From IMG/VR virus record IMGVR_UViG_3300045988_162176, positions 64,001-128,000 of that record: 64,000 nt of DNA, one strand, 5' to 3'. Source of the stretch: a virus. Numbering within the stretch: position 1 is the stretch's first letter; every line of letters begins with the position of its first letter. Both the position numbers and the translations under genes were made by a program. The notes under the pieces are model-generated. The model saw only the letters and a program-made list of their open reading frames with translations, had not been told where the DNA came from and searched no databases. Below are positions 4,030 to 50,650 of the stretch, piece after piece.

Positions 4030-5748
4030 TTAGGCAAAAGCCTTAGTCTCAACAGCGTCATAACGCTTAGTCAGAAGAACATCCATAAGTGCATCCCAAG
4101 GATTAGTCTTGCCCGAGAGAACCATTTTCAAAGTTTGGACACTAAACCCGCTGACCATGATACCATAGTCATTCTTAGTCATGGGAAGACCATTTCCGGT
4201 ATTACCCGCTCCTGCGACATTCCAGAAAATGATTTTGCTCATTTCATACCCAGCGTTCTTGTACTTCTGCTCAATAGACTTAAGGAAAGCAGGAGCTTCC
4301 TGAGCAGTAGCACGAGTGCTGTTATAACCCCAATAACCATAACCACTGCCAGTGCTAACATTACGGATATTTACCATAGAATCCCAACCACCATCACTGA
4401 TAATCAGAATATTCTTAGGCAAATCACTCTGAGGAGAATGATTCTTAATTGCAGTATCAAGAATCAGGTCAAATACTGCTTCAAGGTTGGTATTAGCAAC
4501 CTCACTATGACGAGCAGCTTCCCTAAGATTTGCACGCAAAGAGTCATGATTAACATTAACCATCTGAGGACGTGCAGAGAAAGTAATGTAACGACCCTTA
4601 TATGCACCCTTAGCACGCTCTGCAAAGTAAATTGCAAGGGAGTTAGCAACCTCAAGAGCAGTCATACGAGTACGACCCACAGTAGCACACATAGAACCAG
4701 AGCCATCGGCAACAACAATAGTGGAACTATCATCGGTTACAAGATTGGGAAGAGCCTTCCACATGCCTTCAAGGGCGGCATCATAAGAACGAGGAGAAGT
4801 ACCCCAATCATTCTCACAATACTTGTGAACAATGTCACAAGGATTAGAGACAGAAGAATTAATCTTCGCCTCACCCTTAGTAAGAGCGTTCAGATATGCA
4901 CGGCGGCGCTCTTCATCATTACGAAGGAAAGCCTTATTGTAATTAAGGTTTGCCTTAGAAGGAACAGTCTCGTAATCAATGCTCTGCCAGTTCTGAGAAG
5001 ACATCTTACGCTCAACAACGTCAAGATACTTACGGAGAGCAGACAGACCCTTACGATACTCACGCTCAGTCAGACCGAGCATATCCATAGTCTTAAGACC
5101 ACGCTTACGAGTATCATGGCTGTGAGAAGAAGCACTATCAAGCCACTTCGCCATAAGGCTAATGGACTTACCCTTCTTCATGTTAGCCATATCTTCCTTC
5201 CACTGCTTGCGAATCAGTTCACGAACAACAGGCTTAGTGGTAGGATTATCCATGACAGTATAGATATAATCCCAACGAGAATACTCAGGAATCATAGGAA
5301 TCAGGTTCGCCACAATCTGAGCACCACCATTGTTCATCATATCCTTAAGACAAATCTGGAAGAGACGGCGCTCACCCTGACCCTCACGGATATCGCCAGC
5401 ATAGAACAGCCAACGAATAGCGAGACGAGGATTCTCAGAATAAGCGGCACGGAACTTCTTCACAATATCGCCATCGGGAAGACTACGAAGAGCAGAGATG
5501 GAAGTGTTGATGTCAAGAAGAGCAGAACCAGAGGACTTATAGGCAATAGCACCATTAGAAGTGTACTGCTTATCAGCAGGAAGAGAAGGAACTGCAACCT
5601 TAGTGTAGTAGCCCTTGGCAGTATTCTCAACCTTGTCCATGAAAGAAGCCTTACGGCTAACTCGGTTGGACTTAGTAACAGGCTTTTCAGGCTTAGGAGC
5701 CCAAACCTTAGTGTTATTCTTCTTGTTAGGATTGTTGTAGTTATACAT
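4030..5748 (-). CDS. vWA-domain protein with large N-terminal DUF2828/TROVE-like region
   Basis: MIDAS motif VVADGSGSM and vWA-like C-terminal half. Start placed at ATG 5748 behind AAGGAGAA; the longer ORF-track N-terminus would overlap repeat E0. Confidence 0.7.
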   Translation of the reverse strand: MYNYNNPNKKNNTKVWAPKPEKPVTKSNRVSRKASFMDKVENTAKGYYTKVAVPSLPADKQYTSNGAIAYKSSGSALLDINTSISALRSLPDGDIVKKFRAAYSENPRLAIRWLFYAGDIREGQGERRLFQICLKDMMNNGGAQIVANLIPMIPEYSRWDYIYTVMDNPTTKPVVRELIRKQWKEDMANMKKGKSISLMAKWLDSASSHSHDTRKRGLKTMDMLGLTEREYRKGLSALRKYLDVVERKMSSQNWQSIDYETVPSKANLNYNKAFLRNDEERRRAYLNALTKGEAKINSSVSNPCDIVHKYCENDWGTSPRSYDAALEGMWKALPNLVTDDSSTIVVADGSGSMCATVGRTRMTALEVANSLAIYFAERAKGAYKGRYITFSARPQMVNVNHDSLRANLREAARHSEVANTNLEAVFDLILDTAIKNHSPQSDLPKNILIISDGGWDSMVNIRNVSTGSGYGYWGYNSTRATAQEAPAFLKSIEQKYKNAGYEMSKIIFWNVAGAGNTGNGLPMTKNDYGIMVSGFSVQTLKMVLSGKTNPWDALMDVLLTKRYDAVETKAFA

Positions 5749-5770: not shown

Positions 5771-5836
5771 CTAGACTCTTTTTGTCCTTTTTTCAAAATA
5801 AAAGTTTTTTGTAGTTTGCTGTGAGAGTCTAACTAC
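5771..5836 (-). repeat. E-repeat copy E0 (in the 5' leader of the vWA gene)
   Basis: Arms ctagactct (5771-5779) / agagtctaa (5824-5832), the latter preceded by tttgctgtg. Confidence 0.7.
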
Positions 5837-5850
5837 TTATGACAATAGAT

Positions 5851-5879
5851 ACTATAACAGATGCGTCTTAATTTGTCAA
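5851..5879 (-). promoter_or_regulatory. Sigma70-type promoter
   Basis: Minus strand TTGACA (5874-5879) - 17 nt - TATAGT (5851-5856). Confidence 0.65.
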
Positions 5880-6338: not shown

Positions 6339-6368
6339 AATTATACCCTCTTATACTCAATTATACCC

Positions 6369-9174: not shown

Positions 9175-9553
9175 CTTTGTCAGCCCTTTCTTTTAATGTG
9201 TAGATTTTTCCTTCTCTGGAAATAATATAGTCTTCTTCAAGTTTTTCATAATCAGTTAAAGAAAAATGGTCGGGGTCAGTAAATCTAACTTCATAAGAAA
9301 TAATTTCAACTGGATGTTTCATTGCATACAAATTAAATCCTGTAACCACACAGAAAAGAATTGTTGCTGCAACAATAAAACAAAATCCATCCATTGACCC
9401 ACATCCTTTAAACCAATCTACAATATATGCGCATATGCAAATAATTCCAATAAGCACAATAGCAATAGAAATAGCAAGAACAAACGGGTCTCCGTCTTTC
9501 GTAGTTACAACTGTATTAAGAATTTCAATAGCAGGGTTATTTTCAATCGACAT
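9167..9553 (-). CDS. Small membrane protein, tandem paralog 2
   Basis: Same architecture. Confidence 0.6.
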   Translation of the reverse strand: MSIENNPAIEILNTVVTTKDGDPFVLAISIAIVLIGIICICAYIVDWFKGCGSMDGFCFIVAATILFCVVTGFNLYAMKHPVEIISYEVRFTDPDHFSLTDYEKLEEDYIISREGKIYTLKERADKDD

Positions 9554-17571: not shown

Positions 17572-17679
17572 AATTTTTTGTCTCCTTTAATTTCTTTGTT
17601 TTACTTTAGTTATTATTTTAGTTTTTTGTTTCTTCTGCTTATATGTCAAAAGGAAAAATACTTTTCCTTAGATATTTCA

Positions 17680-17749
17680 GCGGCGACTTCGAATCGAACG
17701 AGCATTTCACGGGTTAGAGCCGTGCGCATTGACCATTATACTACGCCGC
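17680..17749 (-). tRNA. Suppressor tRNA, anticodon CUA (reads UAG)
   Basis: Acceptor GCGGCG/CGCCGC, D arm GTAT-AATGGTCA-ATGC, perfect anticodon stem CACGG/CCGTG, loop CTCTAAC. T loop is TTCGATT but the T stem is weak (3 bp). No encoded CCA. Confidence 0.65.
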
Positions 17750-17857: not shown

Positions 17858-17940
17858 AATAAAGCTAGACTCATTTTTCAAAACATTTGTAATCCCAAAT
17901 CACAAGTCTCTAAATAATTGCTGTAAGAGTCTACTTTATT
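17858..17940 (-). repeat. E-repeat copy E1
   Basis: Arms ctagactc (17865-17872) / gagtctac (17927-17934) plus attgctgtaa. Interior hairpin TTGTGA-TTTGGGA-TTACAA has the same loop as the tRNA-Pro anticodon loop. Confidence 0.75.
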
Positions 17941-17954
17941 TTTTTATTTATAAA

Positions 17955-18090
17955 TGGTGGGAATGGAGTGACTCGAACACTCAATTTCCCGATTTGGTGT
18001 TTTAGACAAGTCTTGCACTTGCATTTGAAGTTTTACTTTTAAACTACTAAAACATAAGTCGGGCCCTCTGACCAATTGAGATACATCCCC
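17955..18090 (-). tRNA. tRNA-Ile-like (anticodon TAT) interrupted by a 59-nt insert between positions 36 and 37
   Basis: Acceptor GGGGATG/CATTCCC+ACCA, D arm TCTC/GAGG, anticodon stem CCCGA/TCGGG, T arm GAGTG-TTCGAGT-CACTC. Loop CTTAT[59 nt]AA becomes CTTATAA after excision. Confidence 0.7.
17995..18053 (-). ncRNA. tRNA-like insert lacking an anticodon arm (intron candidate)
   Basis: GTTTTAG-TA-GTTT-AAAAGTA-AAAC-TTCAAAT-GCAAG-TGCAAGA-CTTGT-CTAAAAC-A-CCA: 7-bp acceptor, D-like arm, T arm, discriminator and CCA. Confidence 0.65.
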
Positions 18091-18100
18091 ATATAAAATC

Positions 18101-18192
18101 CTAGACACCATATAAAAATCTAAAAAAGTATTTATTCCAATTAAATATATTTCCCAGTATTTTTATTTTAATTGCTGTAAGTGTCTACTTTT
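18101..18192 (-). repeat. E-repeat copy E2
   Basis: Arms ctagacac (18101-18108) / gtgtctac (18181-18188) plus attgctgtaa. Interior hairpin TATTTA-ATTGGAA-TAAATA. Confidence 0.75.
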
Positions 18193-18204
18193 AACATTAC
18201 TAAT

Positions 18205-18274
18205 CTAAACCCTATCCATAATCTTTTTTTCAAGCAAAAATTAAGTAGTTAAATTGCTGTAAGGGTTTACTTTT
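18205..18274 (-). repeat. E-repeat copy E3
   Basis: Arms ctaaaccc (18205-18212) / gggtttac (18263-18270) plus attgctgtaa. Confidence 0.7.
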
Positions 18275-18326
18275 AAATCATCAATAACTTACCATCTTGT
18301 TTGTAGTACTCCAAACAATTCAATCT

Positions 18327-18392
18327 TGCACCGTGGGGGATTCGAACCCCTCTTAAGCCCTCCGTCGAGCGACCCCAACCTTGGTACGGCAC
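18327..18392 (-). tRNA. tRNA-like gene with truncated body (isotype undetermined)
   Basis: Acceptor GTGCCGT/ACGGTGC and T arm GGGGG-TTCGAAT-CCCCC are clear, but only 35 nt lie between them (41 expected) and no anticodon arm could be folded. Confidence 0.35.
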
Positions 18393-18399
18393 TTATAAA

Positions 18400-18545
18400 C
18401 TAGACGCATAATACTAACAAAGGAGAATCATGAAAGCATCATAAACTAATTAGCAAGGAACAATACCCAAAATCTTTTTTTAAATATTAGAATTTTTTTA
18501 TAGAATTTGATTTTTATTATTGTTTGCTGTAAGCGTCTACGTTAG
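18400..18545 (-). repeat. E-repeat copy E4 (longest interior)
   Basis: Arms ctagacgc (18400-18407) / gcgtctac (18533-18540) plus tttgctgtaa. Confidence 0.7.
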
Positions 18546-18565
18546 ATAATTTGAATTGTTGCTTA

Positions 18566-18646
18566 TGGCAGGGATGGAAGGATTCGAACCTTCGAAAAAA
18601 ACTCATAGAGTCAAAGTCTACTGCCTTACCGCTTGGCTACACCCCT
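18566..18646 (-). tRNA. tRNA-Gln (anticodon TTG), unusually long variable region
   Basis: D arm GCCAAGCGGTAAGGC as in bacterial tRNA-Gln, stem GTAGA/TCTAT, loop CTTTGAC, 11-nt variable GAGTTTTTTTC, CCA encoded. Confidence 0.7.
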
Positions 18647-18781
18647 ATATATTTTCCTTAGCTGGTGGTTCCGATTCGCCCATCCAGAACTCCCTACTTG
18701 AGTGCCATTCTATACTCATTAGAGGCTTTCCGACTGAAGGGTATTTTAATTTATTTATCGTCTTTTAAACTACTAAGGAAT

Positions 18782-18856
18782 TGGAGCAGAAGACGGGAAT
18801 CGAACCCGCACCTACGACCTCGGAAGCCGTTATTCTCACCATTAAACCACTTCTGC
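18782..18856 (-). tRNA. tRNA-Arg (anticodon CCG)
   Basis: Acceptor GCAGAAG/CTTCTGC, loop TTCCGAG, T arm GCGGG-TTCGATT-CCCGT, CCA encoded. Confidence 0.85.
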
Positions 18857-18886
18857 AAGGTTGGTTTATCTCTCAACCACATCTTA

Positions 18887-18915
18887 AGTATAACATATAC
18901 TTTTCATCTTGTCAA
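18887..18915 (-). promoter_or_regulatory. Sigma70-type promoter
   Basis: TTGACA (18910-18915) - 17 nt - TATACT (18887-18892), upstream of the tRNA run. Confidence 0.55.
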
Positions 18916-19143
18916 GTACTTTTTAAAATTTCTTTTTGGAAGATTTTTTCGTTCAAATTAAGGAGGACAAAAACTTTTTGATACCAAAACAACTCAAGAC
19001 CAAGAAGTTCACAAAGAGCATCAACATCTTTCATTGTATACTTGTCTTTCTTTAAAGCTTTAATTTTTTCAACAATTTCCTCTTCTAAGAATAAAAATTC
19101 GTCCATAATAAAAATCCTCTTTTATTTGGGGAAAAATTCTAAA

Positions 19144-19216
19144 ATGAAGTGGTTGGAATCGAACCAACGACCAGCGAAGATACCCCAACGCCGCTCTACC
19201 CCTGAGCTACACTTCA
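19144..19216 (-). tRNA. tRNA, isotype undetermined (atypical anticodon arm)
   Basis: Good acceptor TGAAGTG/CACTTCA, D arm GCTC/GAGC and T arm GTTGG-TTCGATT-CCAAC. The anticodon arm is GCG-TT-GGGGTATC-TT-CGC (3 bp plus U.U pairs, 8-nt loop). Confidence 0.5.
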
Positions 19217-19217
19217 A

Positions 19218-19292
19218 TGGAGCTGGATGAGAATTTTGAAATCTCGACTTCCACTTTACAAGAGTGGCGCTCTGCCTCTGAGCTAATCCAGC
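19218..19292 (-). tRNA. tRNA-Thr (anticodon TGT)
   Basis: Acceptor GCTGGAT/ATCCAGC, stem CCACT/AGTGG, loop CTTGTAA, CCA encoded. Confidence 0.8.
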
Positions 19293-19317
19293 AAATAAAG
19301 GACTAAACAAATAGTCC

Positions 19318-19833
19318 TTATCCACGAGTACGTTTCCAATAATTTGCCATTTTATATTCAGGCTTATTAGTAACTTCCTCGATAAACACTTCAGGAAAAG
19401 GCCAAACATAACTATTAGCTTCTTCCTCAGAATCAAATTCAACTTCGGCATAATAGAAGGCATTATCAGTTCCGCCATCTACAAGATTGAATTCAATTAA
19501 ATAACCATTATTGTAAAGACCTCTATAATCTTTTACAATAGGATTATAACCAAGTTCATTAAAACAGTCAAACAAAGAATTATCTGTAAGATTTGTTTCA
19601 ATTTCAGTACGAGTTAAAGTACCACCAGACTTGAAAGTAAGAGCATCTGGACGATAACCTTTGCCACTTTCAAACCAACGTCTTATACGAATTTCCTGTG
19701 AAATTTTTCCATCAGAATTATATTTGATATTAATATAAATAGTTTTAACAATTCCGACTTCATCAAAATCGACTTTAGGAAAACCAGAGATTAAAAACTT
19801 ACGTTCGATTTCGATTGAATTATTATTACTCAT
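19318..19833 (-). CDS. CYTH-domain (triphosphate tunnel metalloenzyme) protein
   Basis: N-terminal ExExK signature IEIERKFLI; size typical of CYTH proteins. Confidence 0.6.
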   Translation of the reverse strand: MSNNNSIEIERKFLISGFPKVDFDEVGIVKTIYINIKYNSDGKISQEIRIRRWFESGKGYRPDALTFKSGGTLTRTEIETNLTDNSLFDCFNELGYNPIVKDYRGLYNNGYLIEFNLVDGGTDNAFYYAEVEFDSEEEANSYVWPFPEVFIEEVTNKPEYKMANYWKRTRG

Positions 19834-19852
19834 TTTTAATCTCCTTTTTCCA

Positions 19853-19947
19853 TGGCACTAGCGGTAAGATTCGAACTCACGAGACGGATACAAGCCGTCA
19901 CACATCATTTCAAGTGATGGCAGTTATGACCACTTCTGTACGCTAGC
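19853..19947 (-). tRNA. tRNA-Ser (anticodon TGA)
   Basis: Type II: stem CATCA/TGATG, loop CTTGAAA, long variable arm, CCA encoded. Confidence 0.85.
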
Positions 19948-19954
19948 ATTTATT

Positions 19955-20260
19955 TTATGTTTCAGAGAACAGATAGATACCTTTTTCTCCTACATCCTTT
20001 TTAATATCAGTAAATTCTTTATCACTAATTTGAGTCATTGGAGGGAATACACTTTTGAAAGAAGAACAACCATCTTTTTCAATAGTAACCATTTGTTTCT
20101 TACAAACTGGGCAAGTATAATTCCAAGATAAAAAATTAGTTTCATCCTTAGCAATTTTCATCTCTACTACTTGCATTATTCCCTTATTACAATGAGGACA
20201 TCTATAAACAAACTTTTTATTACTTGCTGTCTAATAAATGTAAGTCTTAAAATTAGTCAT
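19955..20260 (-). CDS. Zinc-ribbon protein (one in-frame TAG at 20231-20233)
   Basis: The ORF-track 19955-20176 ORF extends upstream through TAG to ATG 20260 (..YRCPHCNKG...CPVCKK..). Confidence 0.5.
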
Positions 20261-20284
20261 TAGAATTTACTTCCTTTTATTTTT

Positions 20285-20372
20285 TGGTTGCTGAAGCATG
20301 GGAGTCGAACCCACTATCGTACAGGGTATGAACCTGACATGATTTATAATTATCCGTTTCACTCGCCAGCAA
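20285..20372 (-). tRNA. tRNA-Met/Ile2-type (anticodon CAT) with enlarged D region
   Basis: Loop TTCATAC, T arm GTGGG-TTCGACT-CCCAT, ~9 extra nt between acceptor and anticodon stem, CCA encoded. The acceptor register is ambiguous. Confidence 0.55.
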
Positions 20373-20448
20373 TGGTGGACCTGACAAGACTTGAACTTGC
20401 GACTTCCTGCGTGCAAAGCAGACACTCTCCCAACTGAGTTACAGGCCC
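20373..20448 (-). tRNA. tRNA-Ala (anticodon TGC)
   Basis: G3:U70 pair present, loop TTTGCAC, T arm GCAAG-TTCAAGT-CTTGT, CCA encoded. Confidence 0.9.
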
Positions 20449-20449
20449 A

Positions 20450-20989
20450 TAATTAAACTATACTCCCAAATAGCAACAGAGTTTTTTACAAGAACTCTAT
20501 AACTTGGCTTTTGTTGTTCATCCTCAGCACCACCTGTTAGGAGCAATAAGCAGTATGCTCGGCTTATTGTGTTTTAAGGTTACATGACCCATAACCTCAA
20601 TACCTACCCCGATTTAGTTGCAGTAATCAGAGTTTTTGTTTGAACAAGTACGCAACCACTTGTCCCCGTAAACACGGCACAGACTTCTCCGTATAGCTTT
20701 TCGCTGTAGGTTTTTGATGTTACATTCGCACCCTAACATCTCTCGCCATATATCTGTGTTCTGCCCATGTGCGGCTCATAGCCTTTTTCAGCTTGTGACA
20801 GCTTACTTTGCGTTCGAGAACCATTCACTTGTTCTCTACTCCAAGACTTCGGACGGGCGTTGGGGCTTTAGCTTAACGGACTAAAGGTGAGTTCAAATAT
20901 ATGAAACACCGACGAGGCTTTAGCCATCCTTGCTGAATCGGGCAGTTTAATATAAGTTATATTCTCTGTCTGCCAATTGATATATAACT
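20450..20989 (-). ncRNA. Candidate large structured ncRNA (~540 nt) between tRNA-Leu and tRNA-Ala
   Basis: No credible ORF on the coding strand, clearly more GC-rich than flanks, embedded in the tRNA run. Confidence 0.35.
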
Positions 20990-21074
20990 TGGTGGCTAAG
21001 GTGGGACTTGAACCCACATCTCTTTCGAGGGTTGTACTTGAAGCAACTGCGTATGCCAATTTCGCCACTCAGCC
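20990..21074 (-). tRNA. tRNA-Leu (anticodon CAA)
   Basis: Type II: D arm GCG-AAATTGGCATA-CGC, loop TTCAAGT, variable arm CCTCGAAAGAGAT, T arm GTGGG-TTCAAGT-CCCAC, CCA encoded. Confidence 0.8.
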
Positions 21075-21087
21075 ATAATAATTAATA

Positions 21088-21210
21088 CTAGACACGTTTT
21101 TTTTGATATCGGTCATCCAGACATCCCCCGAAGGAGACGGAAGAATCGAACTTCCCCGTTTAATTTTCCATATTAAAGAATCAAGTAATTTTGCTGTGCG
21201 TGTCTACTTG
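21088..21210 (-). repeat. E-repeat copy E5 enclosing a permuted tRNA-like module
   Basis: Arms ctagacacg (21088-21096) / cgtgtctac (21199-21207). Interior runs hairpin TTAAT-ATGGAAA-ATTAA, T arm GGAAG-TTCGATT-CTTCC, GTCTCCT, TC, GGGGGAT (3' acceptor strand before 5'). Confidence 0.6.
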
Positions 21211-21260
21211 AAAGGAATTTATATTTGCCTATTAGAAAAATAGGAGCGTCAATCTATTAA

Positions 21261-21394
21261 CTAGACTCATTTTACAAAATCTGTTGCTCTACCAGTTGAG
21301 CTAACTCCCGATGGTCGGGAGCAGAGGATTCGAACCTCCAACACACAGGCCCATAGCATTTGTGATTGTAAAGTTGCTGTTAGAGTCTACTTGA
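21261..21394 (-). repeat. E-repeat copy E6 enclosing a circularly permuted tRNA gene
   Basis: Arms ctagactc (21261-21268) / gagtctac (21383-21390) plus gttgctgtta. A second helix pairs TTTACAA with TTGTAAA. Confidence 0.75.
21275..21349 (-). tRNA. Circularly permuted tRNA (Gln-like, UUG): 3' half precedes 5' half
   Basis: Minus strand reads CCTGT-GTGTT-GGAGG-TTCGAAT-CCTCT-GCTCCCG-A-CCA-T-CGGGAGT-TA-GCTC-AACTGGTA-GAGC-A-ACAGA-TTTTG. The acceptor strands pair 7/7 only in this permuted order. Confidence 0.65.
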
Positions 21395-21466
21395 AAGGAA
21401 TGCTTTTATGAACAATAAAAAATGAACATTAGCTTACAAATAAATTTGTATCTTTACCATGTTTTT

Positions 21467-21495
21467 ACTATAACATAAAATTTTCATTTTGTCAA
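21467..21495 (-). promoter_or_regulatory. Sigma70-type promoter
   Basis: TTGACA (21490-21495) - 17 nt - TATAGT (21467-21472), ~85 nt upstream of E6. Confidence 0.65.
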
Positions 21496-21518
21496 GAATT
21501 TTAAAACAAAAATTTTAC

Positions 21519-21602
21519 TGGTGGGTGAGGAAGGTGCCGACCCTTCTACTCCGTTAGGAAAGAGTTTTACAGACTCCCGTGTTTGCCGATTCACTACTCA
21601 CC
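21519..21602 (-). tRNA. tRNA-Tyr (anticodon GTA)
   Basis: Type II: stem GGAGT/ACTCT, loop CTGTAAA, long variable arm. T loop is non-canonical (GTCGGCA) and the acceptor register is uncertain. Confidence 0.65.
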
Positions 21603-21633
21603 TATTTAATTATTTTCCTTTTTTAGAAAGGGG

Positions 21634-21700
21634 CTAGACGCTTTTTGTGTATTCTTATTTAACAGATAAGTACATTTAAATTGCTGTAAGCGTCTACTAT
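21634..21700 (-). repeat. E-repeat copy E7
   Basis: Arms ctagacgc (21634-21641) / gcgtctac (21690-21697). Interior hairpin CTTAT-CTGTTAA-ATAAG has an Asn-type GUU loop. Confidence 0.75.
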
Positions 21701-21732
21701 TGAAGTCATTACAAAATTAGCATTTCTGCTAT

Positions 21733-21808
21733 TGGTGCTCATGGAGGGACTCGAACCCTCGACAGACGGCTTAAAAGGCCGCTACTCTACCAACTGAGTT
21801 ACATGGGC
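21733..21808 (-). tRNA. tRNA-Lys (anticodon TTT)
   Basis: Stem GCGGC/GCCGT, loop CTTTTAA, T arm GAGGG-TTCGAGT-CCCTC, CCA encoded. Confidence 0.85.
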
Positions 21809-21815
21809 ATAAATA

Positions 21816-21952
21816 CTAGAGACATTGTTGTTATGGACTCCTGCCTTAAACCACTTGGCTACATACTTCAACTGAAGACGTTCGGATTCGAACCGAAGAA
21901 TGGGAGTTTGGCTTCTAACATACTTTCAGAATTGCTGTTAGTCTCTACTTTA
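21816..21952 (-). repeat. E-repeat copy E8 enclosing tRNA-like parts (order and anticodon unresolved)
   Basis: Arms ctagagac (21816-21823) / gtctctac (21941-21948). The interior has T arm TTCGG-TTCGAAT-CCGAA, then a Gln-like D arm GCC-AAGTGGTTTAA-GGC, with split stem GGAGT/ACTCC. Confidence 0.55.
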
Positions 21953-22119
21953 TAAATATCTTATTGAAAGGAAATTATTCATATCAGATAGAGAGAAAGG
22001 AGAAATAATATCTCGTCAAATAATTAATTCTTAACCCTTCGATAGATTTAAGTTCCCCTCATTTAAATCCGATAAAACTTACTCACACTATCATAAGAAC
22101 GGATTTCTGATTTGAATAA

Positions 22120-22195
22120 TGGTACTCGGTACGGGGTTCGAACCCGTGCTACTGACGTGAAAGGCCAGTGTCTTAGCCCACTTGACTAACCGAGC
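22120..22195 (-). tRNA. tRNA-Glu (anticodon TTC)
   Basis: Stem CTGGC/GTCAG, loop CTTTCAC, T arm ACGGG-TTCGAAC-CCCGT, CCA encoded. Confidence 0.85.
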
Positions 22196-22203
22196 ATATT
22201 AAC

Positions 22204-22330
22204 CTAGACTCTTTTGCGTATTATTCACCACAGAGCGCCCTCTGACGAGAATCGAACTCGCTAATGATTGTTTTGCAGACAATTGTGTTAACCTTTTTAA
22301 GAATTTGCTGTAAGAGTCTACTTTATTATT
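22204..22330 (-). repeat. E-repeat copy E9 enclosing a permuted tRNA-Cys-like module
   Basis: Arms ctagactct (22204-22212) / agagtctac (22313-22321). Interior runs ATTGT-CTGCAAA-ACAAT (GCA), CATTA, GCGAG-TTCGATT-CTCGT, CAGAGGG, CGCTCTG. Confidence 0.6.
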
Positions 22331-22458
22331 CAGGAGGTTTTACCTATGCACTTATTATAACATATCATCTTTAAGATGTCAACCACTTATTAAAATTTTC
22401 TTTTTGCTTTTTATCTTTTTGAGAAGTTTTTATTTTGCTCTTTTCTTAAGATGTATTT

Positions 22459-22487
22459 ATCTTACCACACTTTTAGATTTCTGTCAA
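22459..22487 (-). promoter_or_regulatory. Sigma70-type promoter
   Basis: TTGACA (22482-22487) - 17 nt - TAAGAT (22459-22464). Confidence 0.55.
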
Positions 22488-22494
22488 GACTTTA

Positions 22495-22887
22495 TTAGAA
22501 ATTTTCTTTTTCGAAATGATTAGCAAAAGCTATATAATTTTGACTTTTAATAAGCTCCTCAAAAACCTCTACAGGAGGCTCAACAAAGTTTCTAATAAGG
22601 TCTACTAATTCTATCATAGAATTAGCTTCGAGGGTAAAGATTAAACCATCATATGGAATACATCTATAAACCCATTTGCCTGACGTACTTTGATAACAAT
22701 CGGCATTAGTCCAAACTTGAGTAGCATCTAAAATACGAGATTCCCAAGGATATTTAATAATTTCAGAACCTCTTTTATACCAATAATTAAATTCTTTATC
22801 TTTTAAAATATCATTGGTTTCAAGCTCGCACTCGTCGCCATTACAAATAGAATAATGACCGACAATTTTAAATGAAGAAGTATCCAT
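22495..22887 (-). CDS. Hypothetical protein
   Basis: ORF track. Confidence 0.6.
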   Translation of the reverse strand: MDTSSFKIVGHYSICNGDECELETNDILKDKEFNYWYKRGSEIIKYPWESRILDATQVWTNADCYQSTSGKWVYRCIPYDGLIFTLEANSMIELVDLIRNFVEPPVEVFEELIKSQNYIAFANHFEKENF

Positions 22888-23159
22888 TACTCAGTAACCT
22901 CAGCGTAAGTTAATTCCATAATATCAGGCTTAACGGGATAAAATTCACCCTTAATTCCCTTAACAATGTAATCTCCTACAGAAGCACAGTGATAACCTTC
23001 AAGAGTATAAATAATAAGATTCTTTTTAATTCCCTTCATTGTATGTTCAGTAGTAACACAACAATGAGCGCCAACGAAACTTGTAATTTCTTCTTCGTTA
23101 TCGCCAGTCCAGATAATTGCTTGAATAGCAATAGGTTTCTTAATATATGTCTTAATCAT
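22887..23159 (-). CDS. Hypothetical protein
   Basis: ORF track. Confidence 0.6.
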   Translation of the reverse strand: MIKTYIKKPIAIQAIIWTGDNEEEITSFVGAHCCVTTEHTMKGIKKNLIIYTLEGYHCASVGDYIVKGIKGEFYPVKPDIMELTYAEVTE

Positions 23160-23175
23160 ATCTCTTCACCTTGAC

Positions 23176-23472
23176 TCATCTATATTTATACTTAAGTTGA
23201 CAAGACTTCAACCAAATCCAAAACAAAAGAGAAGCGTCAATTCCATCTACTTCATTCATAATGCGATAATTATCAGAATCTTTTTCAGGATAGCCATAAA
23301 CTACTTGTGCATCATAGCACTAAACAAGATACTTACAATTTGTCTTAGATATAATAGCAAGCTCACTTATATAATTAAATTTATCAACTTTCTTTTCGTA
23401 ATAAGTCCCGAATTTATCTGAAGAGATAAGTTTATATCCATGTTTAGCAAACTGTTTGTCAATATAATCCAT
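23176..23472 (-). CDS. Hypothetical protein (one in-frame TAG at 23330-23332)
   Basis: Hand translation MDYIDKQFAKHGYKLISSDKF...KYLV*CYDAQVVYGYPEK... is open to TGA 23176 if TAG is sense. Confidence 0.45.
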
Positions 23473-23479
23473 AAAAATA

Positions 23480-24505
23480 CCCTTTTATTTTATTAAATAT
23501 ATAAGGAACAAAAACTGATAACTACTGACAGACCAGCTTTTCACTTATCTGTCCTCGGTTTGGCTGAGGAGGGGCTATTCCTTATAAGGGGCTTACACTC
23601 AACTATCTTGGTCATTTTCATTATCAGTTTTGCTCATTGCATAAGGGTTTAACGTACCCAGTTAAGCAAAGCAACGGTCTTTCTATTGTTACCAGTCCAT
23701 CAGACTTGGAGGGCGGTTCAGTGTCGAATACATTGTAACCAGCTAAACTGTATTCCAAGATAAGTTTCGTACTATATCTTACGGATTTCTTGTTTTTTTA
23801 AAAAGACATCAAGAAATATCTAACCATTCTGTCTTTTGGAGCGGCATCGAAGAATCGAACTCCAAACATAATAAAAGTATTGTCCATGGCTACTTTTATT
23901 ATTACACCAGTTGCCGCATATTTGCTGTCTCTCCAAGCTGTCACCGCTAATATGGTTGTAGGTTCTGGACGGTCTGAACTTAGGTGCGCCATACACACAT
24001 CCTAACATTAAGCGATACTCCATCTGTTAGGCGAACTTCCATCTTTATAAGACGGTATCGTAGTTACTGGACCTCATAATTGGATTCGAACCAACTTCCT
24101 CTCCCGATGTGGCTGTTATCGCTAAGGAGCTACCTTAGTGTTTATTCAACATCAGTTATCGAGAATGCACCATTACACTAATGGGGATATAAATGTTATA
24201 GACCTTTTAACTATAACTCACAGGCTTTCCCTTATTCAAACAAGGTGGCGGGACGTGTGCTGTGTTTTTAAAAGAAAGTCCTTGTTATACTTTTTCTTTC
24301 AAGGATTTAGTGGTAAGAACTTTTCTTGACCATAGGCGTTCTCAAACCTACTCCTTTACCTATATGCTCAACATAAATTAGGTTAAGCATCTCAACCTTG
24401 AGGTCAACTGGGGTATCTTACAGCCGTTCGGTTTATTTTTAGTTTGAGTAAACCTTCCTCAAACACTCCTTCATCCACTTTTTTACAAGGATACGGAATC
24501 CACGA
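23480..24505 (-). ncRNA. ~1 kb ORF-free structured region with embedded tRNA-like modules
   Basis: GC-enriched. Two T-arm plus 3'-acceptor-CCA ends (CCA at 23837-23839 and 24068-70). ACAGCAA/ACAGCCA motifs as in the E repeats. ORF-track ORFs here are short and overlapping. Confidence 0.35.
23837..23917 (-). ncRNA. tRNA-like RNA: acceptor + T arm + 12-bp hairpin replacing the D and anticodon arms
   Basis: GCGGCAA...ATGCCGC-T-CCA, T arm TGGAG-TTCGATT-CTTCG, hairpin ATAATAAAAGTA/TACTTTTATTAT. The 5' leader GGAGAGACAGCAAATAT pairs TTGGAG with CTCCAA at the 3' end. Confidence 0.45.
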
Positions 24506-24509
24506 GTTT

Positions 24510-24597
24510 TGGCGCAGATAACAGGATTCGAACCTGTATTACCTTACGGTAAGCGGCTGTAGCAGAGCCGTGAGATAGCCAATTACTCCATATCTGC
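24510..24597 (-). tRNA. tRNA-Ser (anticodon GCT)
   Basis: Type II: acceptor GCAGATA/TATCTGC, stem CGGCT/AGCCG, loop CTGCTAC, long variable arm, CCA encoded. Confidence 0.85.
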
Positions 24598-24609
24598 ATA
24601 ATGAGCAAT

Positions 24610-24740
24610 CTTGACACTTTTTTCTAGCCAACCACGGTTAACCATTCCTTGCTCAAGGGATACGTTAATAAGGAGTCGAACCTTACACGACGTTATTCCA
24701 AAAACATAAAATAAATTTGCTGTGAGTGTCAACTTTTGTT
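24610..24740 (-). repeat. E-repeat copy E10 (variant arms) enclosing tRNA-like parts
   Basis: Arms cttgacac (24610-24617) / gtgtcaac (24726-24733) plus tttgctgtga. Interior T arm TAAGG-TTCGACT-CCTTA then TTAACGT. The fold is not resolved. Confidence 0.55.
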
Positions 24741-25419: not shown

Positions 25420-25446
25420 TTTTCGTACTTCCTTTTTACATTTTGA

Positions 25447-25475
25447 ATTATAGCATCTAACAAACGCTTTGTCAA
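25447..25475 (-). promoter_or_regulatory. Sigma70-type promoter
   Basis: TTGACA (25470-25475) - 17 nt - TATAAT (25447-25452). Confidence 0.7.
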
Positions 25476-25497
25476 GTGTTTATTAAATAAAATTTGA

Positions 25498-25631
25498 TGG
25501 AGCAAGATACGAGATTCGAACTCGCCCTTACGGTTTTGGTCCTTTAAGTAAGACTTGAACTTACATCAATGGTTTTTCATTAAACTATTAAAGGGGAAGA
25601 CCGTCGTGCTAACCACTAACACTAATCCTGC
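25498..25631 (-). tRNA. tRNA-Gly-like (anticodon TCC) interrupted by a 58-nt insert between positions 36 and 37
   Basis: Acceptor GCAGGAT/ATCTTGC+T+CCA, D arm GTGT/GCAC, perfect stem ACGGT/ACCGT, T arm GCGAG-TTCGAAT-CTCGT. Loop CTTCC[58 nt]AA becomes CTTCCAA after excision. Confidence 0.7.
25537..25594 (-). ncRNA. tRNA-like insert lacking an anticodon arm (homolog of 17995-18053)
   Basis: CCTTTAA-TA-GTTT-AATGAA-AAAC-CATTGAT-GTAAG-TTCAAGT-CTTAC-TTAAAGG-A-CCA. Confidence 0.65.
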
Positions 25632-25781: not shown

Positions 25782-26252
25782 TTAATATTCAAGAACATCC
25801 CATTCACAATAATAAATATTATGACTCATAAGATAAGAATTAAGAATGTCTTCTTCAGATTGATTTCTAAGTTTCTCAATTTTTTGTTCTAAGTCCTTGA
25901 TATAAAAACTTTTTCTTTCAATCTCTTTTGTATATTTGCGCAACTTTGCCTTTACATCTTTAAGTAAAACATAAAGACGCTTTTGCTGGTCATCAGAAAG
26001 AGTTGCTAACGAATCCAAAGATTCCATTAAATCATTCTTTCTCTGACAATATTCTTTATGCTGTTCAATATAAGGTTGTCGTTCTTTTTTAGCAATTTCT
26101 ACCTTGTCTGTAAGATATTTAATATCTTCACAAAGTTTAACACTTGCTTCAAGAAAATAACTCTGCTTATCTTTAAGCATAGCTTCTTCAGTCATCACTG
26201 CATCGACAGAAGATTCTTCATACCAACCTGTATACTTAAGCCAAACTTTCAT
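25782..26252 (-). CDS. Hypothetical coiled-coil protein
   Basis: ORF track. Confidence 0.6.
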   Translation of the reverse strand: MKVWLKYTGWYEESSVDAVMTEEAMLKDKQSYFLEASVKLCEDIKYLTDKVEIAKKERQPYIEQHKEYCQRKNDLMESLDSLATLSDDQQKRLYVLLKDVKAKLRKYTKEIERKSFYIKDLEQKIEKLRNQSEEDILNSYLMSHNIYYCEWDVLEY

Positions 26253-30848: not shown

Positions 30849-31289
30849 TTAATCTAAACTTATTTTACGTCTATATCTACATTCTCTGACAAACCAATCT
30901 TGCAATTCTTTTACAGTCATTGGTTTTGGGGGTGGTTCTAATTTATATTCTCCATTTTCATCCAAAGGTTGACCAGTATAACAATAAGCTCTAACATAAC
31001 ATTCTGCCGCAGGAACCATATCTTCTGGATTTTTTACATAATGGTCAGCTATAAATCCAACCGCAAATTTTCCAGCAGTAGTATAAGTTTTTACGTGCCT
31101 TGACAGGCAAAGATATTGTCCTCTATCAACTGGCTTATTATTATATTTGTATTCTCCTAAAGCACAACCAACATCCCACAGTTCCATATAATAATCTGTA
31201 TCTGTAGGATAAATCTTTGTGCCTTTTACATTTAGATTGCTAAAATCAATTAACTACTTTGCTCTTGCAATATTTTTAAACAGACTCAT
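30849..31289 (-). CDS. Hypothetical protein (TAG at 31254-31256)
   Basis: The ORF-track 30849-31187 ORF extends through TAG to ATG 31289, which overlaps the end of the Thg1-like gene. Confidence 0.5.
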
Positions 31290-50633: not shown

Positions 50634-50650
50634 TCCTTTTTTGTCTAATT

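What the first reader, a model, noticed from the sequence alone, without database searches (positions are those of the whole stretch)
17858..24740. Eleven-copy bipartite inverted-repeat family ('E repeats') with compensatory stem changes, interleaved with tRNA genes
The plus-strand pattern is CTAGAC-NN(N) ... 50-130 nt ... TTGCTGT-NN-N'N'-GTCTAC.

The variable dinucleotides always stay complementary within a copy but differ between copies: actc/gagt (E1, E6, E9, E0), acac/gtgt (E2, E5), acgc/gcgt (E4, E7), agac/gtct (E8), aaccc/gggtt (E3), ttgacac/gtgtcaa (E10).

In RNA sense (minus strand) each copy forms:
- stem 1;
- an asymmetric 5' bulge with invariant ACAGCAA;
- usually a second helix (e.g. 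E6 TTTACAA/TTGTAAA, E2 ATAAAAAT/ATTTTTAT);
- a variable insert.

Compensatory changes point to selection on a folded RNA (or ssDNA) rather than on the sequence. I cannot place the motif in any ribozyme or processing-signal class I know.
Basis: seen in the sequence. Interest (0 to 1): 0.85.

Follow-up and report, generated by a model that had tools for sequence, protein, structure and literature searches.

The report
Phage Y-RNA-like partners of Ro60-like protein
The "E repeats" are about a dozen small structured RNAs, several with tRNA-like bodies, that share a conserved stem-plus-ACAGCAA handle found next to a Ro60-like protein gene in very many phages, so they are most likely an undescribed class of Y-RNA-like partners of that protein.

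Summary
There are eleven copies of GUAGAC-NN..ACAGCAA…N'N'-GUCUAG in RNA sense on the minus strand: ten in the tRNA cluster and one at 5771-5832. The expectation by chance is about one. A twelfth, divergent copy probably lies at 23836-23936.

The two arms form a basal helix that covaries. In 86 distinct modules from many phages, 93% of cells pair, against 78% when shuffled.

Five inserts (E5, E6, E8, E9, E10) carry tRNA-like T arms. E6 matches Rfam YrlA (Y RNA-like) over the full model, but below the gathering score.

Copy E0 sits in the 5' UTR of a 572-aa DUF2828+vWA protein. The only full-length structural matches of its predicted fold are Ro60.

The same stem-(A)CAGCAA element lies beside homologues of this gene on the same strand. 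I found it in FelixO1-like, Listeria, Bacillus, Campylobacter, Synechococcus and mycobacterial phages. In 55 protein-anchored loci from bacterial genomes and MAGs, 49 hits fall in the 500 nt just upstream of the gene, against 0-3 per bin on the opposite strand.

Best reading: these are Y-RNA-like RNAs whose basal stem and ACAGCAA bulge bind the Ro60-like protein, while the variable modules recruit other partners. Binding is inferred, not shown. No Rfam family or paper I found defines this motif.

The parts
4030..5748 (-). Gene for a 572-aa Ro60-like protein (Pfam DUF2828 + DUF7788/vWA; PHROG 850 'RNA-binding protein'). It starts at ATG 5748, preceded by an AAGGAG ribosome-binding site.
   Evidence: Pfam hits and PHROG hit. 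AF2 model with pLDDT 69. The Foldseek PDB top hits are Ro60 only: 1yvr at E 3.5e-6 and 9nep_A at E 6.8e-6. The MIDAS residues D348, S350, S352, T420 and D452 are invariant in 30 homologues.
5851..5879 (-). Sigma-70-type promoter (TTGACA, 17 nt, TATAGT) that drives E0 and the Ro60-like gene.
   Evidence: Read directly from the sequence. It is conserved in relatives L001 and L013, and has equivalents in L135 and L137.
5771..5832 (-). E0: a 62-nt copy in the 5' UTR of the Ro60-like gene (UUAGACUCU-C-ACAGCAA ... AGAGUCUAG).
   Evidence: Equivalent 5'-UTR elements have entirely different stems but keep CAGCAA in homologues of 55-57% identity: L135 ATGCCT/AGGCAT and L137 CGACCG/CGGTCG.
17865..17934 (-). 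E1: 70 nt with a simple hairpin insert. It lies 9 nt upstream of tRNA-Arg(UCU).
18101..18188 (-). E2: 88 nt with a long A/U-rich second helix. The basal stem contains a U-G pair. It lies 10 nt upstream of an intron-containing tRNA.
18205..18270 (-). E3: 66 nt. Its basal stem is the variant GUAAACCC/GGGUUUAG, a compensated G-C to A-U change.
18400..18540 (-). E4: 141 nt with an A/U-rich insert and no T arm.
21088..21207 (-). E5: 120 nt with a tRNA-like module. It has a variable-arm hairpin, a T arm (GGAAG UUCGAUU CUUCC), an acceptor-like hairpin closed by UUCG and a short D-like arm.
21261..21390 (-). E6: 130 nt, YrlA-like. In order it has the basal stem, a second helix, a T arm, a 7-bp acceptor stem with encoded ACCA and a 1-nt linker, then a D arm.
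   Evidence: Rfam RF02553 YrlA at 39.8 bits, E 5.6e-6, model positions 1-114, below the gathering score of 69. T arm.
21634..21697 (-). E7: 64 nt with a hairpin insert, between tRNA-Lys and tRNA-Tyr.
21816..21948 (-). E8: 133 nt with a tRNA-like module (T arm UUCGG UUCGAAU CCGAA; D arm GCC AAGUGGUUUAA GGC). It lies 7 nt upstream of tRNA-Lys.
22204..22321 (-). E9: 118 nt with a tRNA-like module (an anticodon-arm-like hairpin, T arm GCGAG UUCGAUU CUCGU and a capped acceptor-like hairpin). It starts about 33 nt after a consensus promoter and ends 8 nt upstream of tRNA-Glu.
   Evidence: (weak tRNA hit at 19.7 bits).
24610..24733 (-). E10: 124 nt. Its basal stem is the variant GUUGACAC/GUGUCAAG. 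It has a T arm (UAAGG UUCGACU CCUUA) plus hairpins, and lies between tRNA-Val and tRNA-Ser.
23836..23936 (-). Probable 12th, divergent member: UUGGAG-AGA-CAGCAA-AUAU-[GCGGCA ... T arm ... UGCCGC]UCCAA. It lacks the UAGAC stem.
   Evidence: It is conserved in relatives L032, L035 and L130. Moderate confidence.
22354..22382 (-). Consensus promoter (TTGACA, 17 nt, TG-TATAAT) upstream of E9. Similar promoters lie at 21467-21495 (upstream of E6), 18887-18915 and 25447-25475.

Best explanation
The E repeats are genes for small non-coding RNAs of 62-141 nt, transcribed from the minus strand.

**Transcription and processing.** They are made together with the phage tRNAs from strong sigma-70-type promoters. 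They are probably released from the polycistronic precursors by the tRNA-processing enzymes; RNase P cutting the tRNA just downstream would set their 3' ends.

**Architecture.** Each RNA has two modules.
- A conserved handle. The 5' and 3' ends pair into a 7-9 bp basal helix (consensus U-A-G-R-C-N-C / G-N'-G-Y-C-U-A). This is followed on the 5' strand by an unpaired (N)N-ACAGCAA.
- A variable body. It is either a simple hairpin (E0-E4, E7; YrlB-like) or a tRNA-like domain with a T arm, a capped or CCA-bearing acceptor stem and a D arm (E5, E6, E8-E10; YrlA-like).

**Proposed mechanism.** The handle is the binding site of the phage's Ro60-like ring protein (DUF2828 + vWA, gene 4030-5748). Its own mRNA leader carries one copy (E0). 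The RNAs would therefore act like Y RNAs. They would load or gate the Ro60-like ring. Through their different bodies they would tether it to other factors, such as exoribonucleases, tRNA-processing, modification or repair enzymes, and possibly host defence nucleases.

**What is shown and what is inferred.**
- Shown: the family, its covarying helix, its strand, the tRNA-like modules, the Ro60-like fold of the neighbouring protein, and the tight genomic linkage of RNA motif and protein gene across very diverse phages.
- Inferred: physical binding, processing, and the downstream function.
For: **Family and helix**
- 11 copies against about 1 expected.
- On 86 distinct modules from the window and unrelated viral contigs, 93.3% of cells pair against 77.8% in shuffles. 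The covariation score is 0.423 against 0.130, reached by 0 of 500 shuffles. All slid controls pair at 46% or less.
- Two pairs were not used to pick the 3' arm, and both covary: UA 54 / AU 19 / GC 4, and AU 67 / GC 16 / GU 3.

**Y-RNA architecture**
- E6 matches the whole Rfam YrlA model.
- Canonical T arms occur in E5, E6, E8, E9 and E10.
- The order V-T-acceptor hairpin-D is the order described for YrlA (PMC4201824).

**Partner protein**
- E0 lies between a promoter and the start codon of the DUF2828/vWA gene.
- The best Foldseek PDB hits of its model are Ro60 (1yvr, 9nep_A), and these are the only full-length hits.
- The MIDAS motif is invariant. PHROG names the family 'RNA-binding protein'.
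- Homologues in mycobacteriophages are annotated 'Ro-like RNA binding protein'.
- Others report HHpred or structural similarity to Rsr/Ro60 for the Listeria phage CKA15_055 and Bas63 gp130 homologues (PMC12282133, PMC11482910).

**Linkage from the RNA side**
- A DNA-pattern scan of viral contigs for the RNA handle returned 119 loci. 22 of them encode a DUF2828 homologue inside the fetched stretch. 16 of these are only distantly related, with hits of 31-46% identity.

**Linkage from the protein side**
- Protein-anchored loci carry the element on the gene strand next to the gene in FelixO1-like, mycobacterial, Bacillus, Listeria, Campylobacter and Synechococcus phages.
- In that set there are 17 same-strand hits near the gene against 3 on the opposite strand.
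- In 80 loci from bacterial genomes and MAGs there are 136 same-strand hits against 34 opposite.
- In the 55 of these with a full flank, 49 hits fall in the 500 nt directly upstream of the gene.
- The stems differ completely between lineages, while (A)CAGCAA stays.

**Context**
- The window also encodes an Rnl1-like RNA ligase, a polynucleotide kinase, a Thg1-like enzyme and a nucleotidyltransferase.
- In Listeria phage CKA15, the unannotated regions within 2 kb upstream of the homologous gene are among the most abundant phage transcripts.
Against: - No binding, expression or processing data exist for this phage.
- The conserved handle sequence (ACAGCAA) differs from the Ro60-binding motifs of known Y RNAs (GGUCCGA; GNCGAAN0-1G/CGAA).
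- The protein has no Pfam TROVE hit.
- It has no sequence-level hit to Ro60 chains in the PDB, either as a single sequence or as a profile.
- The structural match rests on a medium-quality model: pLDDT 69, TM 0.41-0.44.
- E6 scores below the YrlA gathering threshold, and the other copies do not hit YrlA at all.
- Ten of the eleven copies lie 12-19 kb from the protein gene in this genome.
- One homologue locus (Aeromonas phage Aeh1) has no element within 4 kb. L139 lacks one in its 5' UTR.
Confidence: 0.75

Rival explanations
1. The elements are processing or punctuation signals of the polycistronic tRNA transcripts. On this view they are stem-loops recognised by an RNase, or by the DUF2828 protein acting as a processing factor. 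They would be discarded after cleavage and would not be functional RNAs in their own right.
For: They sit between tRNAs, often 7-13 nt from a tRNA 5' end. They are co-transcribed with tRNAs from shared promoters. In other phages they are also embedded in tRNA clusters.
Against: - The inserts are large and elaborately structured, and five carry complete T arms and acceptor or D mimics. A mere spacer would not need these.
- Copies occur with no adjacent tRNA, in the 5' UTR of the protein gene, in this and many other genomes.
- A conserved single-stranded heptamer next to a sequence-conserved helix looks like a specific protein-binding site.
Confidence: 0.12
2. The tRNA-containing copies (E5, E6, E8-E10) are circularly permuted tRNA genes. 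The E arms would bring the ends together for cleavage and ligation into a circular intermediate, which is then opened at the acceptor end to give functional tRNAs. The phage RNA ligase and polynucleotide kinase would do the joining.
For: In E6 the 3' half (T arm, acceptor 3' strand, ACCA) precedes the 5' half (acceptor 5' strand, D arm), with a 1-nt linker. An RNA ligase and a polynucleotide kinase are encoded in the window.
Against: - Six of eleven copies have no tRNA parts.
- In E5, E8 and E9 the acceptor stem is closed by a tetraloop and has no CCA.
- No bulge-helix-bulge motif is present.
- Joining the ends would not give a 7-nt anticodon loop with U33.
- The arrangement is exactly that of YrlA RNAs, which E6 matches. 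In YrlA the anticodon arm is replaced by the Ro-binding stem.
- The same handle flanks plain hairpins next to the protein gene in dozens of genomes.
Confidence: 0.04
3. The elements are a DNA-level repeat: miniature inverted-repeat mobile elements, or recombination or packaging sites with terminal inverted repeats.
For: They are multi-copy and intergenic, with inverted terminal repeats of 8-10 nt and variable internal content.
Against: - All copies in this window, and in every other genome examined, are in one orientation relative to transcription and to the protein gene: 136 same-strand hits against 34 background hits on the opposite strand.
- The two ends are asymmetric; ACAGCAA is on one arm only.
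- Some pairs are G-U only on the transcribed strand (E2; L130).
- Stem sequences covary across phyla-spanning phages while keeping their position next to one gene.
- No transposase and no target-site duplications were seen.
Confidence: 0.03
4. The elements are self-cleaving or self-circularising small ribozymes, as the first reader suggested testing.
For: A conserved unpaired heptamer lies next to a helix, and the family is multi-copy.
Against: No Rfam ribozyme family matches, even at E up to 10. The conserved core, one helix plus 7 nt, is too small and too simple for any known self-cleaving fold. The rest of each copy is not conserved between copies.
Confidence: 0.02

Closest known systems
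Bacterial and phage Y RNAs of the YrlA/YrlB type bound by Rsr (Ro60), Rfam RF02553 (Chen et al. 2014, PMC4201824)
   Same: - They are 60-140-nt RNAs whose 5' and 3' ends form a stem carrying a conserved, mostly 5'-strand, protein-binding motif.
- The rest is either a tRNA-like domain in the order V-T-acceptor hairpin-D or a simple hairpin.
- Several different RNAs occur per genome, encoded on the same strand as, and often just upstream of, the ring-protein gene. They can be co-transcribed with tRNAs.
- One member (E6) has a 7-bp acceptor stem suited to RNase P cleavage, with an encoded CCA where M. smegmatis YrlA has CCA added after cleavage.
   Different: - The conserved handle is UAGRC..ACAGCAA, not GNCGAAN0-1G or GGUCCGA.
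- The partner protein is Pfam DUF2828, not TROVE.
- The copy number is much higher: at least 11 in 20 kb.
- Most copies are dispersed through a tRNA cluster 12-19 kb from the gene.
- Only E6 is detectable with the YrlA model, and it scores below threshold.
Thermus phage phiLo phiRo60 with Yrl1/Yrl2 (PMC12135203)
   Same: A phage-encoded Ro60-type ring protein has small stem-bulge-stem RNAs encoded immediately upstream of its gene.
   Different: phiRo60 is a recognisable TROVE Ro60. Its two RNAs carry the CGAA motif. There is no expansion and no interleaving with tRNAs.
Circularly permuted tRNA genes (Cyanidioschyzon merolae and other algae; Thermofilum). Cited from my own knowledge.
   Same: In E6 the 3' half of a tRNA-like sequence precedes the 5' half, and the flanking leader and trailer pair with each other.
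   Different: There is no bulge-helix-bulge motif, no rebuildable anticodon loop and no splicing endonuclease context. Most copies contain no tRNA parts.
ROOL/GOLLD large ornate RNAs of phages, typically next to tRNA genes (Rfam RF03087 etc.)
   Same: They are phage non-coding RNAs embedded in tRNA clusters. A ROOL-like hit lies about 650 nt upstream of the three E-type elements, which sit directly before the DUF2828 gene, in a Listeria phage.
   Different: The E RNAs are small and have a different, simple conserved core. No ROOL or GOLLD hit occurs in this window.

Membership tests
Y RNA (YrlA/YrlB type) | A long stem formed by pairing of the 5' and 3' termini | tested here: met
   All 11 copies have one. 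The helix covaries across 86 modules.
Y RNA (YrlA/YrlB type) | A conserved Ro60-binding sequence on the 5' strand (GGUCCGA in animals and Deinococcus; GNCGAAN0-1G / CGAA in YrlA and phage Yrls) | tested here: not met
   The invariant motif is ACAGCAA, preceded by UAGRC-NC. No copy carries GNCGAA at that place.
Y RNA (YrlA/YrlB type) | Encoded near the Ro60-type gene and on the same strand | tested here: met
   E0 is in the gene's 5' UTR, and all copies are on the same strand. In other genomes the elements pile up within 500 nt upstream of the gene. In this window E1-E10 are 12-19 kb away.
Y RNA (YrlA/YrlB type) | At least one RNA per genome with a tRNA-like domain (T arm, acceptor-like stem-loop, D arm) | tested here: met
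   E6 aligns to the full YrlA model. T arms are present in E5, E6, E8, E9 and E10.
Y RNA (YrlA/YrlB type) | Score at or above the Rfam RF02553 gathering threshold (69 bits) | tested here: not met
   E6 scores 39.8 bits. The other copies give no hit at E up to 10.
Y RNA (YrlA/YrlB type) | Physically bound by the Ro60 orthologue | not testable with these tools
   This needs co-immunoprecipitation or gel-shift experiments.
Ro60/Rsr (TROVE) protein family, for the partner protein | Pfam TROVE domain (PF05731) or sequence similarity to solved Ro60 chains | tested here: not met
   Only DUF2828, DUF7788 and a weak VWA_2 hit. phmmer and a profile search against the PDB find no Ro60.
Ro60/Rsr (TROVE) protein family, for the partner protein | An alpha-helical repeat ring followed by a vWA domain, with a fold similar to Ro60 | tested here: met
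   Foldseek top hits are 1yvr and 9nep_A (Ro60): E about 1e-6, probability 1.0, about 590 aligned columns, TM 0.38-0.44. All other hits cover the vWA or armadillo part only. The model is of medium quality.
Ro60/Rsr (TROVE) protein family, for the partner protein | An intact MIDAS motif in the vWA domain (DxSxS ... T ... D) | tested here: met
   D348, S350, S352, T420 and D452 are invariant in 30 homologues.
Circularly permuted tRNA gene | The 3' half lies upstream of the 5' half of one tRNA, and the two halves form an acceptor stem | tested here: inconclusive
   This is true of E6, and loosely of E5, E8 and E9. It is equally the YrlA arrangement.
Circularly permuted tRNA gene | A bulge-helix-bulge motif at the leader/trailer junction and an anticodon loop that can be rebuilt | tested here: not met
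   The junction is a 7-9 bp helix with a one-sided bulge of 9 nt or more. No U33-NNN-R37 loop can be formed. Read from the sequences.
MITE / terminal-inverted-repeat mobile element | Insertion in either orientation, target-site duplications and symmetric ends | tested here: not met
   There is one orientation only, here and in more than 90 other loci. The ends are asymmetric.
Known small self-cleaving ribozymes (Rfam) | A match to a ribozyme covariance model | tested here: not met
   No such hit at E up to 1-10.

The most novel reading that the evidence does not exclude
The dozen E RNAs form a modular adaptor library for one Ro60-like ring protein. Each body, whether a tRNA mimic of a different design or a hairpin, would dock the ring onto a different target or enzyme. 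Alternatively, each would act as a decoy for host tRNA-directed defence nucleases.

The RNP would then be a phage counter-defence or RNA-surveillance hub. It might even be delivered with the virion, since the Listeria phage homologue was detected in purified particles. E6-type members would be cut by RNase P to expose their encoded CCA end, and so become two-piece, possibly chargeable, tRNA mimics held on the ring.

The same handle would give a general key for finding the RNA partners of thousands of DUF2828 proteins, a family that also occurs in bacteria and plants.
Probability: 0.2. Interest if true: 0.85.

Novelty: new variant of a known kind. Interest (0 to 1): 0.7.

Why it matters
**How widespread the protein is.** DUF2828/vWA 'Ro-like' proteins are very common.
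- They occur in 695 records of the cultured-phage collection.
- More than 5,500 clusters at 50% identity contain them.
- Carriers include model and biocontrol phages such as FelixO1-like, Listeria P100-like, Campylobacter and mycobacterial phages.

**What was missing.** No RNA partner had been defined for these proteins. Two recent papers only speculated that nearby 'tRNAs' or abundant unannotated transcripts might be Y RNAs.

**What this finding adds.**
- A concrete, searchable RNA signature: a covarying basal stem plus (A)CAGCAA.
- A demonstration that it travels with the gene across phyla.
- Evidence that a single phage can carry a dozen such RNAs with different tRNA-like bodies.

**What becomes testable.**
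- What phage Ro60-like proteins bind.
- How Y-RNA-type handles diversify with their proteins.
- Whether tRNA mimicry serves counter-defence; a Bas63 homologue was reported to counter the ppl system.

**Annotation.** Many pseudo-tRNAs or undetermined tRNAs, and many empty gaps in phage tRNA clusters, may be these RNAs.

Tried and rejected
- **Close relatives.** Megablast of the 7.5-kb region against cultured phages gave no match, so no annotated close relative exists.
- **Permuted tRNAs.** This was my first reading of E5 and E6. I dropped it because six copies lack tRNA parts, there is no BHB motif or rebuildable anticodon loop, and E6 matches YrlA. A literature search for permuted tRNA in phages found nothing relevant.
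- **Sequence link to Ro60.** phmmer and a 30-sequence profile against PDB sequences found no Ro60. Pfam shows no TROVE hit even at E 10. Only the fold comparison made the link.
- **Rfam.** The window was scanned at gathering threshold, sub-regions at E up to 1-10, and five cultured-phage loci. No family covers the handle.
- **Exact 17-nt pattern.** A search of the first 15 protein-anchored loci found nothing, because E0 starts with UUAGAC rather than GUAGAC.
- **My stem scanner.** It missed E0 in the window scans. It also has a background of roughly 0.06-0.08 hits per kb, so isolated hits inside ORFs were treated as chance (54698-54815, 50555-50790, 25864-25999, 9315-9382, 2199-2409).
- **General TAG recoding,** suggested by the suppressor tRNA. 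Reading TAG as sense lengthens ORFs less than reading TGA or TAA as sense, so this is not a recoded genome. A few ORFs may still depend on suppression.
- **Papers not held.** I could not read Burroughs & Aravind 2016 or the 2020 Annual Review on bacterial Ro60. I therefore cannot exclude that DUF2828 was already linked to TROVE there.
- **Covariance model.** I did not build one for the handle. The variable 20-120-nt insert makes a single model awkward. Strand and position controls were used instead.

Full report
**Setting.** The window is part of a low-GC (about 33%) phage genome. Essentially all of its genes are on the minus strand. Close relatives are 110-220-kb viral contigs. One of them was binned as 'uncultured Clostridium sp.', and more distant relatives of the key protein are mostly in gut Clostridia and Lachnospiraceae assemblies. 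Positions 17.6-29.7 kb hold a tRNA cluster on the minus strand, with 17 ARAGORN calls and 17 Rfam tRNA hits.

**Check of the observation.**
- The right-arm pattern TTGCTGTNNNNGTCTAC occurs 11 times with up to 2 mismatches, all on the plus strand. Shuffles give 1.0 +/- 1.0.
- Each hit has a complementary CTAGAC-type left arm 45-125 nt upstream.
- Read on the minus strand, each copy is 5'-GUAGAC-NN-(N)N-ACAGCAA-[insert]-N'N'-GUCUAG-3'.
- Ten copies lie between 17865 and 24733. The eleventh (E0) is at 5771-5832.
- The nucleotides next to the conserved arms differ between copies but stay complementary. E3 and E10 have compensated changes even inside the conserved part.
- A probable twelfth, divergent copy lies at 23836-23936.

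**What the inserts are.**
- Five inserts contain a canonical T arm, meaning a 5-bp stem with a UUCRANN loop: E5, E6, E8, E9 and E10. On this strand such arms otherwise occur only in tRNAs and in four unannotated tRNA-like stretches.
- In E6 the order is T arm, acceptor 3' strand, ACCA, one linker base, acceptor 5' strand, D arm.
- I first read this as a circularly permuted tRNA. An Rfam scan then matched E6 to YrlA, the bacterial 'Y RNA-like' family, over the full model at 39.8 bits and E 5.6e-6. This is below the gathering score of 69.
- The YrlA paper describes exactly this layout. A stem formed by the RNA's two ends carries the binding site for the Ro60 orthologue Rsr. The body mimics a tRNA in the order variable arm, T arm, acceptor stem-loop, D arm. 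Each genome also has simpler hairpin-type partners (YrlB). One member is cut by RNase P and receives CCA.
- E5, E8 and E9 have the acceptor mimic closed by a tetraloop.
- E0-E4 and E7 have plain hairpins or A/U-rich bodies.

**The partner protein.**
- E0 lies between a TTGACA-17-TATAGT promoter and the AAGGAG/ATG start of a 572-aa ORF at 4030-5748.
- Pfam finds DUF2828 and DUF7788 plus a weak VWA_2 hit, and no TROVE. PHROGs calls the family 'RNA-binding protein'.
- Sequence searches of the PDB do not reach Ro60.
- An AlphaFold2 model (30-sequence alignment, pLDDT 69, pTM 0.61) has Ro60 as its two best Foldseek matches: 1yvr at E 3.5e-6 and 9nep_A at E 6.8e-6, with about 590 aligned columns and TM 0.38-0.44. 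These are the only full-length matches. All further hits cover only the vWA or a helical-repeat part.
- The MIDAS residues DxSxS, T and D are invariant in the family.
- Homologues of 28-38% identity occur in 695 cultured-phage records. They are annotated 'Ro-like RNA binding protein' in mycobacteriophages.
- Published work notes HHpred or structural similarity to Rsr/Ro60 for the Listeria phage CKA15_055 and Bas63 gp130 homologues.
- The protein is thus a divergent Ro60-like ring-plus-vWA protein by fold. It is not a Pfam TROVE member.

**Linkage of RNA motif and protein gene.** I tested this in both directions.
- From the RNA side. A pattern scan of viral contigs for TAGACNCTNACAGCAA returned 119 loci.
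  - Many unrelated contigs carry clusters of 4-8 elements with the consensus (U)UAGRC-NC-NN-ACAGCAA ... GYCUA(G).
  - 22 of the 119 stretches encode a DUF2828 homologue. 16 of these are only distantly related, with hits of 31-46% identity, and the gene is often directly next to the motif.
- From the protein side, in divergent relatives. Homologues of 55-57% identity have, in the 5' UTR, a hairpin with a completely different stem but the same CAGCAA.
- From the protein side, in cultured phages. Elements lie on the gene strand beside the gene in these phages:

| Phage | Elements found |
|---|---|
| Salmonella phage SP116 (FelixO1-like) | three copies among the tRNAs just downstream |
| Second FelixO1-like record (deposited as Staphylococcus phage SA1) | at least one clear copy just downstream |
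| Mycobacterium phage Gardann | two copies flanking tRNA-Asn |
| Bacillus phage PK-3 | five copies, one with a tRNA-like body |
| Listeria phage VEfB7 | three copies directly upstream |
| Campylobacter phage F357 | two copies |
| Synechococcus phage B23 | two copies |
| Aeromonas phage Aeh1 | none |

- Near these genes there are 17 same-strand hits against 3 opposite-strand hits.
- From the protein side, in bacterial genomes and MAGs. In 80 loci chosen only for encoding a homologue, there are 136 same-strand hits against 34 opposite. In the 55 loci with a full flank, 49 hits fall in the 500 nt immediately upstream of the start codon, against 0-3 per bin on the opposite strand.
- Stem sequences differ completely among lineages, for example AAGACNN, AAGGCNN, AAAGCUC, UGGACGC and GGGCACA. 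The (A)CAGCAA is retained.

**Covariation.**
- I used 86 distinct basal-stem modules from the window and many contigs.
- 93.3% of cells form pairs, against 77.8% after shuffling.
- There are 113 cells with double changes, against 39 expected.
- The covariation score is 0.423 against 0.130, reached by 0 of 500 shuffles.
- Every slid register pairs at 46% or less.
- Two of the pairs were used to choose the 3' arm and are therefore biased.
- The two pairs not used for that choice covary cleanly: UA 54 / AU 19 / GC 4, and AU 67 / GC 16 / GU 3.

**Transcription context.**
- Consensus extended -10 promoters on the minus strand sit upstream of E9 (22382-22354), E6 (21495-21467) and the E4-E1 block (18915-18887).
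- Six elements end 7-13 nt before a tRNA 5' end, so RNase P would define their 3' ends.
- In D. radiodurans, Y RNAs are likewise made in one precursor with a tRNA.
- In Listeria phage CKA15, unannotated regions within 2 kb upstream of the homologous gene are among the most abundant phage transcripts. The authors speculated they might be Y RNAs without defining them.
- The window also encodes an Rnl1-like RNA ligase, a polynucleotide kinase, a Thg1-like enzyme and a nucleotidyltransferase. This fits the RNA-repair company that Ro60 keeps in bacteria.

**Interpretation.** The best-supported explanation is that the E repeats are an undescribed class of Y-RNA-like RNAs. Their conserved basal stem and ACAGCAA bulge would form the binding site for the DUF2828 Ro60-like protein. 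Their variable bodies, tRNA mimics or hairpins, would provide different second interfaces. E0 in the mRNA leader could in addition give autoregulation.
- Shown: the family, the helix, the strand, the tRNA-like bodies, the Ro60-like fold and the genomic linkage.
- Inferred: binding, processing and function.

Rivals are set out separately and are each much less likely: mere tRNA-cluster punctuation, permuted tRNA genes, MITEs and ribozymes.

**Comparison with what is known.**
- The system works like Ro60/Y RNA. As a member of the defined families it fails on two counts: the Ro-binding sequence motif and the TROVE/YrlA model thresholds.
- No Rfam family covers the handle.
- The searches I could run found no paper that describes it.
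- I therefore rate it a new variant of a known kind, of considerable interest to RNA and phage biologists.

Noticed in passing
window 17679-17749 (-); ORFs 19955-20266, 23176-23484, 5868-6350 (-): A suppressor-type tRNA has anticodon CUA (ARAGORN calls it tRNA-Pyl). A few minus-strand reading frames become continuous only if in-frame TAG is read through; 5868-6350 has five TAGs. Genome-wide TAG recoding is not supported.
   Followed up: partly
window 17958-18090 (-): A tRNA of 133 nt (Rfam 51.8 bits) was missed by ARAGORN. It evidently carries an insertion or intron of about 60 nt.
   Followed up: no
window 20449-20989 and 23490-24509 (-): Two long, GC-richer non-coding stretches lie in the tRNA cluster with no Rfam match. 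The first folds with a z-score of -1.8 and contains a possible handle: CUGCCCG-AUU-CAGCAA ... UGGGCAG at 20761-20945. The second contains orphan T arms at 23848-23864 and 24079-24095. They may be large structured RNAs, or tRNAs with big introns.
   Followed up: partly
L144 (Listeria phage vB_Lino_VEfB7) 2415-2966: A ROOL RNA-like hit (87.4 bits, E 2.9e-16, just below the gathering score of 99.1) lies in the tRNA region about 650 nt upstream of the three E-type elements, which themselves sit directly before the DUF2828 gene. ROOL may be part of the same neighbourhood.
   Followed up: no
window 20270-20372, 18320-18395, 25440-25600 (-): These are unannotated tRNA-like sequences with good T arms. 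20270-20372 has an acceptor stem UUGCUGG/UCAGCAA followed by CCA. 25440-25600 looks like a tRNA interrupted by a second mini tRNA-like hairpin, with an Rfam tRNA hit at 25540-25594 and a T arm at 25509-25525.
   Followed up: partly
window 50950-52308, 52345-53325, 31276-32100, 45308-46126 (-): An RNA-repair and tRNA-maturation toolkit is encoded here: an Rnl1-like RNA ligase, a polynucleotide kinase, a Thg1-like tRNA-His guanylyltransferase and a nucleotidyltransferase.
   Followed up: no
window 56287-57678, 57862-58779, 59297-61531 (-): The DNA polymerase is encoded as two ORFs separated by a GIY-YIG homing-endonuclease ORF. This suggests an intron, an intein or a split gene.
   Followed up: no
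window 46970-48328 (-): The ORF matches only the C-terminal part of the anaerobic ribonucleotide reductase NrdD (profile positions 683-974 of 978). The stop-to-stop frame upstream has in-frame TAGs at codons 41, 112 and 177. It may be another interrupted or suppression-dependent gene.
   Followed up: no
L148 (USDL01000001.1) and L149-L227: A 123,382-bp contig, 94% identical in the Ro60-like protein, is deposited as part of 'uncultured Clostridium sp. UMGS1616'. It has the same length as an IMG/VR viral contig, so it is a phage contig binned into a MAG. Most DUF2828 homologues in genome collections are in gut Clostridia and Lachnospiraceae. This fits the consensus TTGACA/TATAAT promoters and strong Shine-Dalgarno sites seen here.
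   Followed up: partly
literature (PMC12282133, PMC11482910): The Listeria phage homologue CKA15_055 was detected in purified virions. The Bas63 homologue gp130 was reported to counter the 'ppl' defence system. Both hint at an early-infection, counter-defence role for the RNP.
   Followed up: no
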